Below, one piece after another: positions 15,001 to 27,000 of a DNA stretch of 64,000 nt. Location of the stretch: IMG/VR virus record IMGVR_UViG_2671180747_000017, one strand, 5' to 3'. A program made the position numbers. The stretch comes from a virus. Its lineage: Duplodnaviria > Heunggongvirae > Uroviricota > Caudoviricetes. Position 1 is the stretch's first letter. Every line of letters starts with the position of its first letter.

Positions 15001-18000
15001 TCCGTGAAGCCGAACAGGATCGCCAGATGAACATACTGACGGGGGCTTCTGCACCGGCAAGACAGAAACTGAGTGTTGGCGGACAACTGGTGGCAGCGTA
15101 AGGAGGAAATATGGGGTACGGCTTACTGGATATTGCGAATCAGTCACGGCGTGAGGCATTACAGGGAATAAGTGACGCAGACCGACGACGTGAAGAAATT
15201 GAGGCTGCGAACAAACAGATGGCGGCGCAACAGAAAGCGCAGAACAAGCAGAATATCGGTACGGGCATTGGTACGGGGGCGGCTATTGGCGCATCCGTTG
15301 GTGGTCCTGTTGGTGCTGTTGCTGGAGCAGTAATTGGCGGCATTGCTGGTTCTTTGTTTTAAGGAGTGGTGAATGAGCGGATTTGCACAGGGGTTACTTG
15401 CCGGATTCAGCACGGTTGACCAGGCAATGACCCGTCGTAAGGAGCTTGGTCTGCGTGAAGCACAGCTTGCCCGGCAACAGAAAAATAACGAGCGCGATTT
15501 TGAGTTTGCGCAGTCTCAGTTTGAACATAATAAAAACGTTGATCAGCGGAACTTTGATTACAGAGCCAAAGTTGACGACCGTAATTATGCACTGAAGGAA
15601 AGGGAGTTTAACGCTAACCAGAATTACCGGAATGCGTCGCTGGGTATGGAGCAGCAGCGACTCCGGATGCAGAAATACAACCAGCGACGGCTTGAGTATA
15701 ACGATATGCTGGCGCGCGATCAGCCTGTGATGGCGGCGCTTGGAAAGGCTGTGGATGCTGGCGATCGGGATGCAGCAATGCGTCTTTACGGCCAGTTGTC
15801 AGAGGGTAATCCGCTGAGGCTGATGGCGAATGATGGCTATGTAGCGAAAGCGGGTCAGGCCGTGAACAACCTGCAAAAAATCTTTGATGACAAGCCAGAC
15901 AGGGCTATCGCTTCACTTAATACGCCGGAGAATCTTGATGTCCTTTCCGGGGTGTTTGGCCCGGAACTGCAACAGCGTATTGGCATGCCCGATTCAACCG
16001 GGAAAAAGACGATAAAAGAGGCCAGGATTGGCAGTATAGTACCGGCACAGCAGGAAGGGTACATACTTATCGGCCTTGATCTCACATACAGTGATGGCTC
16101 TACAGCACATAAACCTGTAACAGAATACGGCAGTGCGCACCCTGATGATCAAACCGTGCTGGCGATACCCGTTGATAAGGCTATCGCTCAGGTCAGGGAT
16201 CGCAGCAAATTTGCAGAGATATCGAAAAATTATGGTTATTTTATGCCGAAGCAGCAGGGACTTTCTCTGAAAGAGCTTCAGAAGGGGGCCAGCAACGTCG
16301 CGGCGGACGCGATCAAGAATGGCGGTAATGCACAGGCTGCGGTGGATGAATATTATGCTGCGACTGGTTCACAACCGCATCAACAGAAAATTCAGCAACA
16401 AAAACTTCAGCAACAGGTTATCAACTGGGCGGGAGATGATCCTGATAAGCTGTCATTTGCCAGAAATGTAGCGGCCCGTCAGCCTGAAATGCTGGAGCCT
16501 CAGAATCAGAAATTGCTGGAGAACGGGTATGCGAATTTTCTCCGTATTCAAAAGGCCAGGGGGGAACAGGCCAGAGATGAAAGTGCTTCATCTGCATCTC
16601 AGTTTATCCGTGGACTGAAACAGAATTACGCCCAGTAATTCACGATATTCCATTAATACCATTTCCTGATGCCCGGCCATTGTGCCGGGTTTTTTTATGG
16701 AGTCTGTATGGCCTATTCAGAGGAACAGCGTCCTGAGGCGCAACTCGGTAACCAGAATCGTAACAGCCTGAACATTCAGCAACCCGGCGAAACTGACAGC
16801 TATGAAGCATTTTTCTCTGATCCGAATCGCTGGAAGGATAACAGTACGTCGTTCAGCCTGGGCGATGTATTGCCAACAATGGGTAAAGGTTTCGCCCAGT
16901 CCGTCCGGGGAACAGGGGAAATGGCCCGTGGACTCGGTGATGCGATGATTCAGAGCCCGGTAAAAACAGGGGCGCGTATTTTAAATGAGTTCAGCCGTAT
17001 GGGGCTGCCGGGTGTCGCAACTGTGCAGGATATTTTTGCCGGTGGCAGCAGGGGGGCTGATGAGGTCATCGATACCCTGCCTGATGGCAAAAACGCGGTT
17101 ACTGATACTGTCGGTAAAGGTCTGAAGGCAACCGGTAAGGCTGTCAGTGATGGTGCTGAAGCCACTGATGAATGGCTGACCGGTAAGATGTCGCCGGGTG
17201 CAGTTCGTGCGCTGAATACGCCGATGACCGAAGGCTATGATGATTCTGCGGTCTGGGTGGCGAAGGGTGTAAACCTGATTGGTGCGCTTGTACCTGATAT
17301 GGTTGCTGGCGGTGTGGCTAAAAAGGTGGGTGATGTCACACTGCGAAAAATGCTGACCGCCGGGCTGGAGAAAAAATACATCGCGGCAGGGATGCAGCCG
17401 GAAAGAGCCACGGCACTGGCAGCAGAAGCTGTCGATAAAAAAATGCCGGATTTATTCCAGGCGGGCCTGATCACCCATTCCACAGCCAGTGCACAGGGGC
17501 AGAGTGCAATGGCGGCAGCAGATGCTGTTCTTAATGCGGATTACTCTGAGCTGGCGCAGTCACCGAAATTTCAGCAGACGTTTTTGTCCATTGACGCCGA
17601 CCCGCAGCACGCACAGCTTACTGATCGCCAGAAAATGGATCTGGCAAAAGAGCGTGTTGCCGATGAGGTGCGCGCGCAGCTGGCAACCGATCCTGAATTG
17701 CTGGCTGTGAATGCCATGGCGGCAAAACTGGGTGACGCACAACTGTTTAATCTGGTGACACGAGGCACAGCGAAGACCGTTAAAAGCGGCATTGTCAGAA
17801 ATGCCACGGAACAGGGGGCGATTAATGCGGCGCAGGGCGGCTATTCACGCTATCAGGAAAACACGGCATTGCGTGAGACCGCCGGAATGGATGTGTCACC
17901 GTGGGAGGGCGTGGCTGACGCAACGATCGAAGGTGCAGCCTTTGGTGCTGCGATGGGGGCTCCATCCGGTGCGGTTGCCGGATATCGTGGCAGACGTCAG

Positions 18001-24000: not shown

Positions 24001-27000
24001 GGACCTTTACTGGAGCGCCTTCGCTGGAAGAATCTGAATGTTCCGCAGAAAATCGCGCTTGCCGCTGTGGGAGCGGGTTATCTGCTTGGCTCGCTTAACC
24101 GCAGCGTGGCGGGTGAGGATGATGACGGGGTTAACTGGTATGACAAAGTACCGTCTCATGTGAAAGAGCGTAACCTCGTCATTATGAAATCGGTGTTCGG
24201 GGGCAAGGCCGGAGAGTACTGGAGTATTCCTCTGCCTTACGGGTACAACGTTTTCTTCCTGCTTGGTCACACAGCCGAAGGGGTGGCAGCGGGCGACCTG
24301 ACCGCTTCACGTGCTGCCGGTAATGTTGTTGGTGGTGTGCTTGGGGCATTCAGTCCTGTGGGCAGTGAAACGTCGGAAACACTGTCCGGGGCATTGCTGA
24401 AAAATGCAGCGCCGACCATTCTGCGTCCGTTTGCGAACCTTGCCATGAATGAAAACTTCATGGGGGCGCAGATTTACCAGGAGAACATGCCGTTTGGTAC
24501 ACCAAAACCTGACAGCCAGCTGGGAAGACGTTCAACGCCAGAAGCGTACAAGGCGTTTGCATCCTGGCTGAATGCGTTCTCAGGTGGCAGCCAGTACCGT
24601 CCCGGCGCGGTGGATATCACACCGGAATCGCTGAAATTCTGGATTGACTATATCTCCGGAGGGACAGGGCGCTTCATTTCCAAAACCACGGATGCGGCGG
24701 TGAAATCGCTGAATGGTATTGATATACCGGAACAGCAGGTGCCCTTCCTGGGGAAAATTTCGGGGGAGGTGATGCCGTATGCAGACCAGCAGAAGATGTA
24801 CGACCGGATGACAGAGATTGCGCAGTATCACGCAGAGCTGAAGAGTCTGACCGGTGCAGAAAGAACGGCGTTCATTGACGAGAACAACGGAAAATTGTCG
24901 ATGAACGGGCTTATGCAGGATACCCGGAAGAGACTGAAGGATTTGCGTAAACAGCGTGATGCCATTTATGCCGACAGTTCTCTCAGTCTGGCGCAGCAGG
25001 CGGCGATAGTGAAATCGGTAGAGCGGGATATGAAGGTTGCCGTGGATCGCTTTAACCGCGAGTACAACAAAAAAGTGGGAGTGGATTAACAGAAATGGCC
25101 CCGTACGGAAGTGCGGGGCTGATTAAGGAATAAACACACATTAACCTGTAATAACCGGAGCTATTAACATATAGTCAGAAAGAGTATTTCATGTGAGACA
25201 GAGAGCCGATTTATGTTTAATGAAGAAAAAGTTGCGCAAATGGCAGCGTATTTGCTGAAAAAGCATGGCGGATCTATGCGTTTCATTAAGCTGATGAAGC
25301 TGATGTATCTCTCTGACCGCAAAGCAATGGAGTCTTTAACCGGGAAGGGGAGAGGTTTGAATGCTCCCCCACAATTCCCCGGCATCAAATCTCCATGCAG
25401 GTGAACTATTTTACCCCCAGCGGCAAATCGCAAAAACAATCAGTGCGATCGAAATGGCAGCCACTACAATTGCAAATGCTTCAGGCTAGGTCATTGGCTT
25501 ACCTCCTTCGGCGGTTCTGGTAGCGGCATCCAGTGGGTTACTTCTTTGAGATGCAGGTCTTCGCCATCACCGTCATCCCAAGTGGGATTGCCATCATTAA
25601 ACCAGTCGCCATATACGCCGACCTGAGTGTTGGGGATGCTTGGTGGGTAGTTGTTTTTAAAGTCAGCTGCTAACACATAGTATTGTCGCTCTCCCATTTC
25701 TGGCATTCGATCACTACAGCTTATCCAACCATCCGGAGTTACCGGAACTGGCGGAACGGCTGTTTGCTCTCGAACGTCATTAGTCGCTATCGGTTCTGCT
25801 GCCAACTGACTGGCATATTTGTTAATGGTAACGATAAGCTCTTGCTCAGCCTCATCCAGACAATCACCGATACCTCGCCTGTCACCGTCAAAATCATCGA
25901 AATCGGCACGAATCTTGGCAACCTTCTGGATTGCGGACAACACCTCACTAGGAATTACCGGATAGTTGGTTGACGTTTCCGCGATTTCCCGAAAATTATT
26001 GGTTGACGAATTCTTGTTTTCCCGAAAGTTTCCGGACTGAAGCATGGCGGCGCGGCAGGCATTCCAGCCTCTTACCTCTGCAATAGCGGCAACCGCATCA
26101 ACCGCGTACATGCTAAGAGGATTAGGCATTGGTTTTTCTTCCGGTACTACTGGTGCTGGAGGGGCGGCGTAAATGCCCTCTATCACTAAATGTTTGCGCT
26201 CAAAATCATCTGGCTCTCGATGATATACGTAACTCCAATCACCAAGGTTATCATTGCGCCTGCAACGGAAACCTATCGGCTCGGCTTCCAGCGCTGCCAG
26301 AGCAATTCGTGCCAGTTCTTCCGCTTCTTCTGCTGGCAGTACAACGTTGCTACCAGGTCCGTATGTTTCGCGCCACTGCTTGATTGTCAGTAGTCGCTCT
26401 TTGGTAATAGTGATCATGCCGCGTTTCCTTCTTTCTTATTAACAATTACACCGTCATATATTTCATTAAGGTGCCCTCTCAACTCCATGCGCCTTAATGC
26501 AGATAACATGTAATCGCATTCAACCTGCTTATTCCCAATAAAAGGTTTATCTTCAGGGTTACCCCAACAGCAATTCCCCTTGGGCCATCCATGTACTTTC
26601 CGTACTCTTCCGTTAACAACGTGAAGTAATCCCCAGCCAGGTGGTAAATCCTCAATTGAAATAATTCCCGGCTCACTAATAAAGAATCGCCAGTCGCCCA
26701 TTCCAAGAGACGGATTTTTACGAAAACGCTTTTTTCTATCTGCCAACAAGTCAGCACGAGAACATTTCGCCTCTATCAGGCATGATGCTGAATTTCTGAA
26801 TCCCATAGCATCTGGCTGTTCTCCGGTACTGGTTACAGCTATAAAGCGGTCATGAAAACAAACCTTGAACCCGTTGCGCTTAAGGAACTTGTACGCAATC
26901 TGACAGAGTTCGCGGTGTGTTAACGCCATATCACTCTCCTTTGATGCGAATGCCAGCAAGCCAGTTTCTTATGCCGATATATTCAGCGTTCCGGAAACCG

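What the first reader, a model, noticed from the sequence alone, without database searches (positions are those of the whole stretch)
16708..25089. 2793-aa virion protein with two zincin-type HExxH motifs: candidate injected multidomain protein
A single 8.4-kb ORF closes the virion gene block, after small internal-virion-type genes. It contains HEWFH (20557-20571) inside a block ..GARGKGKAAAHYESGEVAINLTKGNGPGALAHEWFHSLDNYFG.. and HEIIHH (21358-21375) inside ..FYRPDKREIVLVADNIPDGQTVREKLRHEIIHHAMEHV.., both consistent with metallopeptidase-like modules. A long acidic/proline-rich linker and a ~1000-aa C-terminal region follow. Giant multidomain proteins packaged and injected by phages and conjugative elements are known, but the domain set here needs profile analysis.
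Basis: partly seen in the sequence, partly recalled or inferred. Interest (0 to 1): 0.6.

Follow-up and report, generated by a model that had tools for sequence, protein, structure and literature searches.

The report
Giant packaged multi-enzyme protein of Stx phages
This 8.4-kb gene is the known giant "polyvalent" virion protein of short-tailed Shiga-toxin phages.

Summary
The window is a short-tailed Stx prophage: 186 phage records carry this gene full-length at 90% identity or more.

The protein is already described. It is Sp5 ORF80/ECs1242, which is essential. It is also phi24B gp47, found in virions by mass spectrometry and proposed to be an encapsidated ejection protein. RefSeq calls it "LPD5 domain-containing protein", a phage-type polyvalent protein in the sense of Iyer 2017.

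- **Other parts:** a MuF-C/PBECR RNase-fold domain with conserved His and Ser follows, between a conserved N-terminal module and a roughly 900-aa C-terminal block.

Injection and self-cleavage are inferred, not shown. Peptidoglycan-hydrolase, AAA+ and DarB-like readings are not supported. Verdict: real, correctly interpreted, already known. Interest is low to moderate.

The parts
16708..25089 (+). Giant ORF, 2793 aa plus stop. Orthologue of Sp5 ORF80/ECs1242 and phi24B gp47.
   Evidence: There are 186 phage records with full-length matches at 90% identity or more, the best being 99.9% to Shigella phage 75/02 Stx. PHROG 616 matches over the full length.
16671..16697 (+). Terminator-like hairpin plus T run immediately upstream of the start codon.
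   Evidence: It lies inside the alternative ATG-16669 reading, which favours 16708 as the start.
16708..18027 (+). N-terminal module (aa 1-440), Ala/Gly-rich, with a glycine-zipper-like uncharged stretch at aa 409-426.
   Evidence: It is found at the N-terminus of 66 of 110 giant homologues and in Vibrio phage D60. There are weak Gly-zipper Pfam hits and an uncharged run.
18028..19707 (+). Acidic then proline-rich low-complexity linker (aa ~441-1000).
   Evidence: Composition per 100 aa. No Pfam hit.
19858..20307 (+). LPD5 domain (aa 1051-1200), the N-terminal accessory of the first zincin cassette.
   Evidence: Pfam PF18799, E 1e-44. It is modelled as beta-hairpins plus helices at high pLDDT.
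20251..21027 (+). Zincin domain 1 (aa ~1182-1440), CLCA_X-like, with Pfam LPD1 (aa 1361-1440) as its C-terminal half.
20557..20571 (+). HEWFH motif (aa 1284-1288), followed by D1291.
   Evidence: It is invariant in 25 diverse homologues.
21115..21747 (+). Zincin domain 2 (aa ~1470-1680), belonging to the HExxxH clade and covered by no Pfam or NCBIfam model.
21358..21375 (+). HEIIHH motif (aa 1551-1556). It can be read as HExxH or as HExxxH.
   Evidence: 122 of 129 family segments have HExxxH only, and the Stx-phage lineage has both readings.
21955..22218 (+). MuF_C / PBECR RNase-fold domain (aa 1750-1837).
   Evidence: Pfam PF18819, E 2e-17. H1752 is conserved in 95% and S1816 in 100% of 20 non-redundant homologues, along with K1745, H1801 and N1812.
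22345..25086 (+). Conserved C-terminal block (aa 1880-2793), including LPD38 (aa 2476-2681, nt 24133-24750).
   Evidence: Pfam LPD38, E 4e-48. It aligns to the C-termini of PHROGs 14770, 10691 and 10089. It is always C-terminal in about 50 of 110 giants and in Vibrio phage D60.
13996..16638 (+). Four upstream ORFs (218, 150, 83 and 421 aa), the neighbours of the giant gene in the internal-protein cluster. They correspond by position and size to phi24B gp51, gp50, gp49 and gp48.
   Evidence: gp48, gp50 and gp51 were detected in phi24B virions. Sp5 ORF79 (the 421-aa ORF) is essential. All four are Cys-free.

Best explanation
The ORF encodes the giant, encapsidated polyvalent protein of short-tailed Stx phages (Sepvirinae).

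**Architecture.** It has a conserved frame made of an N-terminal module (aa 1-440) and a C-terminal block of about 900 aa that ends in LPD38. The frame surrounds a swappable middle that carries three enzyme-type domains: an LPD5-zincin-LPD1 cassette (HEWFH), a second zincin of the HExxxH clade (HEIIHH), and a MuF-C/PBECR RNase-fold domain.

**Proposed mechanism.**
1. The protein is packed inside the T=9 head. This has been shown for phi24B gp47 by mass spectrometry.
2. It is needed for completion of a stable tail-bearing virion. This has been shown for Sp5 ORF80.
3. On infection it is expelled through the tail ahead of or with the DNA. This is inferred.
4. The frame modules would contribute to the passage across the envelope. 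This is inferred.
5. The two Zn-peptidase domains would cut the polyprotein at its long linkers, or cut host proteins, and so release the RNase-type domain into the cell. This is inferred from the polyvalent-protein model of Iyer et al. 2017.

Roughly, identity and architecture have probability about 0.9, delivery into the cell about 0.6, and self-processing by the zincins about 0.4. The overall confidence given (0.7) refers to the statement as a whole, weighted towards identity, architecture and virion location.
For: **Identity**
- 186 Stx-phage records carry the gene full-length at 90-99.9% identity, and RefSeq names it 'LPD5 domain-containing protein'.
- Pfam finds LPD5, LPD1, MuF_C and LPD38, all far above their cut-offs.

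**Virion location and essentiality (literature)**
- phi24B gp47 gave 10,962 PSMs, second only to the capsid protein. The copy number was estimated at ~11-35 per virion, and the protein is absent from the map.
- Peptides from both halves of the protein were detected.
- The Sp5 ORF80 deletion gives DNA-filled heads with no tail-fibre labelling.

**Zincin 1**
- NCBIfam CLCA_X matches at E 6e-44 over aa 1182-1437.
- H1263, HEWFH, D1291, E1375 and E1382 are invariant. This matches the phage-type MPTase clade described in PMC5512222.

**Zincin 2**
- There are 397 cluster representatives, almost all in 1.5-6 kaa proteins.
- H, E, H, E1607 and E1614 are invariant.
- The family motif is HExxxH, as described by Iyer 2017.

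**PBECR domain:** H1752 and S1816 are conserved.

**Frame plus cargo**
- N- and C-terminal modules are terminal in 66 and ~50 of 110 giants, with a variable middle.
- The same synteny and frame occur in ~60-kb Vibrio phages.

**Cysteine:** there is no Cys in this protein or its four upstream neighbours, nor in the Vibrio homologue. This fits passage in an unfolded state into an oxidising periplasm, which is an inference.
Against: - No experiment shows ejection, Zn binding, proteolysis or RNase activity.
- In phi24B most gp47 spectra come from the top four gel slices, above the portal slice. The bulk is therefore large in the virion, and processing before ejection is not indicated.
- The tail-less phenotype of the Sp5 deletion points to an assembly role that an effector model does not predict.
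- Foldseek against the PDB found nothing for the zincin-2 model; the best E was 0.25.
- hhalign between the two zincin profiles is weak: probability 12%, E 0.0025.
- The CLCA_X score of 150 bits is below NCBIfam's curated cut-off of 260.
- No convincing transmembrane helix was found. The only 19-residue window with mean hydropathy of 1.3 or more is at aa 181-199. The longest uncharged runs are 17-23 residues with modest hydrophobicity.
Confidence: 0.7

Rival explanations
1. The metallopeptidase domains digest peptidoglycan so that an ejection conduit can reach the inner membrane. This is the proposal in the phi24B preprint.
For: Podoviruses need to cross the cell wall. The preprint proposes this role for a 'MuF-C metallopeptidase domain'. 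No other cell-wall hydrolase was detected in the giant protein or in the ten ORFs from 8375 to 16638.
Against: MuF-C is a PBECR RNase-fold domain, not a peptidase. The real zincins resemble endopeptidases that cut proteins (MtfA, lethal factor, Pro-Pro endopeptidases, minigluzincins, SprT/Wss1, IrrE). No M15, M23, LAS, lysozyme or transglycosylase domain was found. Known peptidoglycan metallopeptidases use HxxxD/HxH sites rather than HExxH plus Glu (established knowledge).
Confidence: 0.1
2. The zincins are effectors that cleave host proteins, such as defence or housekeeping proteins, rather than processing the polyprotein itself.
For: Iyer 2017 lists this as an alternative role. The nearest folds include toxins and regulators that cut specific host proteins: lethal factor, BoNT light chains, IrrE and CapP. 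Stand-alone LPD5-zincin-LPD1 proteins of about 470-500 aa exist, with nothing else to process.
Against: Zincin 2 occurs almost only inside giant proteins, often in tandem and directly before the C-terminal block. That pattern suits an in-cis processing role. No host target is known.
Confidence: 0.3
3. The protein is essentially structural or morphogenetic, acting as a tail-assembly factor or an AAA+-driven assembly machine. The enzyme-like domains would be relics.
For: The Sp5 ORF80 deletion gives heads without detectable tail fibres. Mondal et al. noted a COG1483 AAA+ hit.
Against: There is no Walker A motif and no AAA+ or other ATPase hit in Pfam or NCBIfam. The protein is invisible in the tail and portal reconstruction. 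Catalytic residues of all three enzyme-type domains are invariant or nearly so across distant homologues, which argues against relics. There are no repeats of tape-measure type.
Confidence: 0.1
4. It is a DarB-like antirestriction protein that protects incoming DNA from restriction enzymes.
For: PHROG 10089, 'DarB-like antirestriction', matches aa 2351-2681.
Against: The match covers only the shared C-terminal LPD38 region. No methyltransferase, helicase or SNF2 domain is present, and these are what define P1 DarB (established knowledge).
Confidence: 0.05

Closest known systems
phi24B gp47, Sp5 ORF80 (ECs1242) and the orthologues in VT2-Sakai and 75/02 Stx
   Same: It is the same gene at 97-99.9% nucleotide identity over the full length, in the same position at the end of the late operon. 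The gene is essential in Sp5, and the protein is present in phi24B virions.
   Different: Nothing substantive differs. Published descriptions list LPD5, LPD1, LPD38 and MuF-C, or COG1483. They do not identify the two zincin domains, and the preprint attributes peptidase activity to MuF-C.
Phage-type polyvalent proteins (Iyer, Burroughs, Anand, de Souza, Aravind 2017, PMC5512222)
   Same: It is a giant multidomain protein in a late-gene context. It carries LPD domains, one or more zincin MPTases, a PBECR RNase-fold domain and the phage-only LPD38. Both MPTase variants described there are present: the His-strand-2/Asp+3 type and the HExxxH type.
   Different: The main text of that paper does not mention Stx phages. 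The terminal frame plus variable middle seen here is my own survey.
CLCA_X family (Lenart et al. 2013, PMC3650047; NCBIfam NF041907), for example Bordetella phage BPP-1 Bbp10
   Same: The match runs over profile positions 3-245 of 250 at E 6e-44. The HExxH motif is followed by a conserved Asp. The family is mostly found in phage, prophage and plasmid proteins, many longer than 1000 aa.
   Different: The score of 150 bits is below the curated cut-off of 260. Here the domain is embedded in a giant protein and preceded by LPD5.
Phage N4 virion RNA polymerase gp50
   Same: It is a protein of about 3500 aa that is encapsidated in a T=9 podovirus head and injected with the DNA. It contains a zincin MPTase in the region needed for encapsidation (citing the primary literature).
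   Different: There is no RNA polymerase module here. No sequence match to N4 gp50 was sought or seen.
Ejection (internal core) proteins of T7 (gp14/15/16) and P22 (gp7/16/20)
   Same: They are head-internal proteins encoded at the end of the structural block and are expelled to bridge the envelope (established knowledge).
   Different: No sequence or fold match was found. T7 gp16 carries a transglycosylase, which is absent here. Here a single 306-kDa chain carries peptidase-type and RNase-type domains.

Membership tests
Phage-type polyvalent protein (Iyer 2017) | Several unrelated domains in one very large polypeptide, including LPD-type domains | tested here: met
   LPD5, LPD1, MuF_C and LPD38 all score above the Pfam cut-offs. 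Two zincin domains are also present.
Phage-type polyvalent protein (Iyer 2017) | Encoded among late or virion genes | tested here: met
   It is the last gene of the structural block, after the nozzle, needle and internal-protein genes. The synteny is the same in Vibrio phage D60.
Phage-type polyvalent protein (Iyer 2017) | Packaged in the virion and delivered into the host | not testable with these tools
   Packaging is shown for the phi24B orthologue by mass spectrometry. Delivery has not been shown anywhere.
Zincin MPTase, His-strand-2/Asp+3 clade (zincin 1) | Conserved HExxH, a conserved His before it, and an Asp three residues after it | tested here: met
   H1263, H1284, E1285, H1288 and D1291 are invariant in 25 sequences.
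Zincin MPTase, His-strand-2/Asp+3 clade (zincin 1) | A downstream helix providing a Glu, and the zincin fold | tested here: met
NCBIfam NF041907 CLCA_X | Score at or above the curated cut-off of 260 bits | tested here: not met
   The score is 150.4 bits, E 5.9e-44, over profile positions 3-245 of 250. It is a clear homologue but below the family's trusted score.
Zincin MPTase, HExxxH clade (zincin 2) | HExxxH motif on a helix | tested here: met
   The motif is present in 127 of 129 family segments. The window protein reads HEIIHH, so H1556 satisfies HExxxH and H1555 satisfies HExxH. The motif lies in helix 83-102 of the model.
Zincin MPTase, HExxxH clade (zincin 2) | A third ligand (Glu) on a later helix, and the zincin fold | tested here: met
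Any zinc metallopeptidase | Zn binding and peptide-bond hydrolysis | not testable with these tools
   This needs purified domains.
PBECR / MuF_C RNase-fold domain | Match to PF18819, with a His in the N-terminal part and a Ser or Thr near the C-terminal strand | tested here: met
   The Pfam match is E 1.6e-17, 63.9 bits against a cut-off of 27.6. H1752 is conserved in 95% and S1816 in 100% of homologues. The secondary-structure positions of these residues were not modelled.
Peptidoglycan hydrolase (lysozyme, SLT, M15, M23, LAS) | A recognisable catalytic domain | tested here: not met
   There is no such hit in Pfam, NCBIfam or PHROGs for the giant protein or its ten upstream neighbours.
AAA+ ATPase (COG1483, as suggested in 2016) | Walker A P-loop and an AAA+ profile match | tested here: not met
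   No [AG]xxxxGK[ST] motif is present, and there is no ATPase family hit.
P1 DarB-type antirestriction protein | Methyltransferase plus helicase modules | tested here: not met
   Only the shared C-terminal LPD38 region matches the 'DarB-like' PHROG. No methyltransferase or helicase hits were found.
Tape-measure or tail-fibre protein | Tandem or collagen-like repeats, or tail-fibre domains | tested here: not met
   TRF finds only a trivial 25-nt array. There are no tail-fibre or tape-measure hits.

The most novel reading that the evidence does not exclude
The N-terminal module and the ~900-aa C-terminal block would form a general, Cys-free protein-delivery chassis used by several podovirus lineages, including Stx phages and ~60-kb Vibrio phages. 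Any effector cassette inserted between them would be carried into the cell. The HExxxH-clade zincin, which usually sits just before the C-terminal block, would be the built-in release protease that frees the cargo (here a PBECR RNase and a second zincin) after ejection.
Probability: 0.3. Interest if true: 0.55.

Novelty: already known. Interest (0 to 1): 0.28.

Why it matters
Short-tailed Stx phages spread Shiga toxin genes among E. coli and Shigella. This protein is essential for them and is estimated at roughly 11-35 copies of 306 kDa per virion, yet its function is still open.

Placing the peptidase-type and RNase-type domains correctly gives precise residues to mutate: E1285, E1552, H1752 and S1816. 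It also corrects the premise of the published peptidoglycan hypothesis, which assigned peptidase activity to the wrong domain.

The frame-plus-cargo layout, if confirmed, would be of practical interest for engineering phage-delivered proteins. None of this changes the classification. The protein is a typical phage polyvalent protein, a class described in 2017.

Tried and rejected
1. A sequence search of the PDB with the whole protein, and with the zincin-2 profile, gave only chance-level hits.
3. Pfam at E up to 10 on seven segments, and on all 39 members of the zincin-2 alignment, showed no family for zincin 2, the N-terminal module, the linker, or aa 1880-2470. The only recurring hit was weak Peptidase_M76.
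4. hhalign of zincin 2 against zincin 1 aligned the strand-strand-HExxH core in register, but only at 12% probability. I do not use it as proof of homology.
5. I tried to test proteolytic processing by re-reading the phi24B gel-slice proteomics. The held supplement gives per-slice counts only per protein, and the peptide sheet has totals only and is truncated. The test was not possible.
6. The AAA+/COG1483 idea from the 2016 paper is rejected: no P-loop and no profile hit.
7. The DarB-like label from PHROGs is rejected because it reflects only the shared C-terminal region.
8. Hydropathy and uncharged-run scans found no convincing transmembrane helix. A membrane-spanning role for the frame remains an inference.
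9. A tandem-repeat scan was negative.

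
Full report
**1. Observation**

The window has an uninterrupted + strand ORF at 16669..25089. The ATG at 16708 gives 2793 aa. It has a GGAG 7 nt upstream. It is also separated from the preceding gene by a terminator-like hairpin at 16671-16690 followed by seven T. RefSeq uses the same start in the 99.9%-identical Shigella phage 75/02 Stx.

HEWFH is aa 1284-1288 (nt 20557-20571) and HEIIHH is aa 1551-1556 (nt 21358-21375), in the exact peptide contexts quoted. From the composition (37 His, 204 Glu) only 0.036 HExxH motifs are expected, and two or more appeared in 0.05% of shuffles.

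One detail in the finding is misplaced. The acidic region (aa ~440-700) and the proline-rich region (aa ~700-900) precede the motifs rather than follow them.

**2. What the locus is**

Megablast finds the gene full-length at 90-99.9% identity in 186 phage records. All are Stx-converting short-tailed phages of E. coli and Shigella (Sepvirinae), including VT2-Sakai (Sp5) and vB_EcoP_24B.

The gene is the last of the late structural block. It follows the nozzle-like 563-aa gene, the needle-like 422-aa gene, the bor/lom morons and four ORFs of 218, 150, 83 and 421 aa. Opposite-strand early genes come after it.

The prophage ends near 30 kb. The E. coli ynfF region follows, and a second lambdoid prophage starts near 47 kb.

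**3. What is already published on this protein**

- Mondal et al. 2016 (PMC5155283) deleted the identical-length Sp5 ORF80 (ECs1242). The mutant makes no plaques. It produces DNA-filled, normal-looking heads that do not bind anti-tail-fibre antibody. The authors called it a tail-formation gene and noted only a COG1483 hit.
- A 2026 preprint on phi24B (10.64898/2026.04.10.717836) detected gp47 in purified virions. It had 10,962 spectra, second only to the capsid protein, mostly in the top four gel slices. Copy number was estimated at about 11-35 per virion. The protein could not be seen in the map. The authors listed LPD5, LPD1, LPD38 and "a Muf-C metallopeptidase domain" and proposed an encapsidated ejection protein whose peptidase degrades peptidoglycan.
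- The neighbours gp48 (421 aa), gp50 and gp51 are also virion proteins that are not resolved in the map.
- Iyer et al. 2017 (PMC5512222) defined polyvalent proteins and the LPD, MPTase and PBECR domains, but do not mention Stx phages in the text.

**4. Domain analysis done here**

*Pfam overview.* Pfam gives LPD5 (aa 1051-1200, E 1e-44), LPD1 (1361-1440, E 1e-23), MuF_C (1750-1837, E 2e-17) and LPD38 (2476-2681, E 4e-48). Neither HExxH motif lies inside a Pfam hit.

*Zincin 1.*
- NCBIfam's CLCA_X model covers aa 1182-1437 (profile 3-245 of 250, E 6e-44). This joins HEWFH and LPD1 into one unit. The score of 150 bits is below the curated 260.
- CLCA_X was described by Lenart et al. 2013 as a zincin family mostly from phages, prophages and plasmids, with a conserved Asp after the HExxH.
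- A word-indexed homologue search found many LPD5-plus-LPD1 proteins at 35-53% identity, from diverse bacteria and metagenomes. They include stand-alone proteins of about 470-500 aa.
- In 25 diverse sequences the invariant residues include H1263, E1265, N1272, T1274, H1284, E1285, W1286, H1288, D1291, E1375, R1379 and E1382.
- This is the pattern Iyer et al. give for a widespread phage-type MPTase: a His at the end of strand 2 and an Asp three residues after the HExxH. The invariant Glu residues fall inside LPD1, so LPD1 is the C-terminal half of the peptidase domain.

*Zincin 2.*
- An exhaustive HMMER scan with aa 1460-1690 found 397 cluster representatives at E 1e-3 or better. Nearly all are proteins of 1.5-6 kaa, and some carry two or three tandem copies.
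- H1551, E1552, H1555, E1607 and E1614 are invariant. This is an HExxH helix plus a Glu about 50 residues later, the gluzincin arrangement.
- No Pfam model covers this domain in the window protein or in its homologues. The only recurring weak hit is Peptidase_M76.
- The family motif is HExxxH in 122 of 129 segments. Only the Stx-phage lineage has HE(I/V/L)IHH, which can be read either way. Iyer et al. describe exactly such an HExxxH set of polyvalent MPTases.
- Foldseek against the PDB found nothing significant. hhalign between the two zincin profiles is in register but weak. Overall I consider the zincin assignment well supported, but not at the level of a curated family match.

[quoted passage not shown] In 20 non-redundant homologues K1745, H1752, H1801, N1812 and S1816 are conserved. 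This fits the His-plus-Ser/Thr configuration described for active PBECR domains.

*The rest of the protein.*
- I scanned 110 giant homologues of at least 1500 aa with profiles of each segment. The N-terminal module (aa 1-440) is present and N-terminal in 66.
- The C-terminal block (aa 1880-2793, ending in LPD38 plus a ~100-aa tail) is present and C-terminal in about 50.
- The middle varies. It may hold LPD5-zincin 1 (20-25 proteins), one to three copies of zincin 2, zero to two MuF-C domains, and other cargo such as SNF2-type helicase modules.
- Zincin 2 often lies directly before the C-terminal block.
- Among sequenced phages, zincin 2 occurs in the Stx phages and in about 105 Vibrio phages of ~60 kb.
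- In Vibrio phage D60 the synteny is the same: tail fibre, small ORFs, a 467-aa ORF distantly similar to the 421-aa ORF here, a 3066-aa giant, then opposite-strand early genes. The giant has the same N-terminal module, zincin 2 and C-terminal block.

*Other properties.*
- The protein has no cysteine in 2793 residues (P about 4e-14 at 1.1% Cys). Its four upstream neighbours, the D60 giant and the D60 upstream ORF have none either.
- There is no Walker A motif, no ATPase hit, no methyltransferase or helicase, no peptidoglycan hydrolase domain and no tandem repeats.
- No convincing transmembrane helix is present. There are only glycine-zipper-like uncharged runs at aa 409-426 and 2536-2553.

**5. 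Most likely mechanism**

*Shown by others.* The protein is in the virion in multiple copies and is required to obtain tail-bearing infectious particles.

*Shown here.* It is a frame-plus-cargo polyvalent protein with two conserved zincin-type domains and a conserved PBECR domain.

*Inferred.* It lies inside the head, leaves through the tail on infection, and its peptidase domains cut the chain at the long linkers, or cut host proteins, so that the RNase-type domain and other pieces act separately. The absence of cysteine fits a protein that must travel unfolded through a narrow channel into an oxidising compartment. That is an interpretation, not a test.

*Points against a simple effector picture.* The tail-less phenotype of the deletion argues against it. 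So does the fact that most gp47 signal in virions runs at very high mass, which suggests no extensive processing before ejection.

**6. Rivals**

- The peptidoglycan-degradation idea rests on a misassigned domain. The true zincins resemble protein-cutting endopeptidases, not cell-wall peptidases. I give it about 0.1.
- A role of the zincins against host proteins rather than in self-processing is compatible with everything seen, including the stand-alone LPD5-zincin-LPD1 proteins. I give it about 0.3. It is not exclusive of the main model.
- A purely morphogenetic or AAA+ role (about 0.1) and a DarB-like antirestriction role (about 0.05) lack their defining features.

**7. Comparison and novelty**

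The gene is the same as phi24B gp47 and Sp5 ORF80, and it belongs to the phage-type polyvalent proteins of Iyer et al. Functionally it most resembles the encapsidated, injected N4 virion RNA polymerase, a giant protein in a T=9 head with an MPTase in the encapsidation region, but without the polymerase.

The refinements made here are incremental:
- Both peptidase domains are now located, and LPD1 is shown to be part of the first one.
- The second peptidase domain belongs to the HExxxH clade and has no database model.
- MuF-C is not the peptidase.
- The terminal frame is conserved, and the cluster is Cys-free.

Verdict: a real feature, correctly read by the first stage, already known as a kind and as a specific protein. 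Interest is about 0.28.

Noticed in passing
window 16671-16697: A terminator-like hairpin (7-bp stem with 6 GC pairs, followed by T7) lies between the 421-aa ORF and the giant ORF, 11 nt before the ATG at 16708. Late transcription must read through it, presumably under Q antitermination. It also argues against the longer 2806/2811-aa annotation used for phi24B.
   Followed up: partly
window 13996-25089 and 10063-11331; L002:6637-17357: There is no cysteine at all in the giant protein, in the four ORFs upstream of it, or in the needle-like 422-aa ORF. The 3066-aa homologue and its 467-aa neighbour in Vibrio phage D60 are Cys-free too. The nozzle-like 563-aa ORF has 8 Cys.
   Followed up: partly
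window 21358-21375 and homologues P0121-P0269: The family of the second peptidase domain has HExxxH in 122 of 129 segments. Only the Stx-phage lineage has HExIHH, where a one-residue shift restores a canonical HExxH while keeping an HExxxH reading.
   Followed up: yes
literature: bioRxiv 10.64898/2026.04.10.717836: The phi24B preprint calls MuF-C a metallopeptidase domain and builds a peptidoglycan-degradation proposal on that. Pfam and Iyer 2017 define MuF-C as an RNase-fold (PBECR) domain. The real zincin domains are elsewhere in the protein.
   Followed up: yes
window 15111-15362: This 83-aa ORF has a glycine-zipper / class-II-bacteriocin-like C-terminus and is annotated 'bacteriocin' in related phages. 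It sits inside the internal-protein cluster and is Cys-free. In phi24B it was seen only at trace level and was treated as a contaminant.
   Followed up: no
window 15373-16638: This 421-aa ORF is the counterpart of Sp5 ORF79 (essential for tail formation) and phi24B gp48 (about 30 copies per virion, not seen in the map). It has no Pfam domain. It has a distant homologue (29% identity over 130 aa, E 1e-12) directly upstream of the giant gene in Vibrio phage D60, so the pair is conserved.
   Followed up: partly
window ~29600-47000 and 47000-64000: The Stx-type prophage ends near 30 kb, next to the E. coli ynfF (selenate/tellurate reductase) region, which also holds an integrase gene. From about 47 kb a second, unrelated lambdoid prophage begins with int/xis/exo, 97-99% identical to phages HannyBb and PhiR42_1. 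There are no tRNA genes in the window.
   Followed up: partly
window 11346-13444: A moron cluster lies between the tail genes and the internal-protein genes. It holds a Bor-like outer-membrane protein (92 aa), a membrane-associated protein (205 aa), Lom (244 aa), and a hok/mok-like host-killing ORF that is annotated in the 75/02 Stx record.
   Followed up: no
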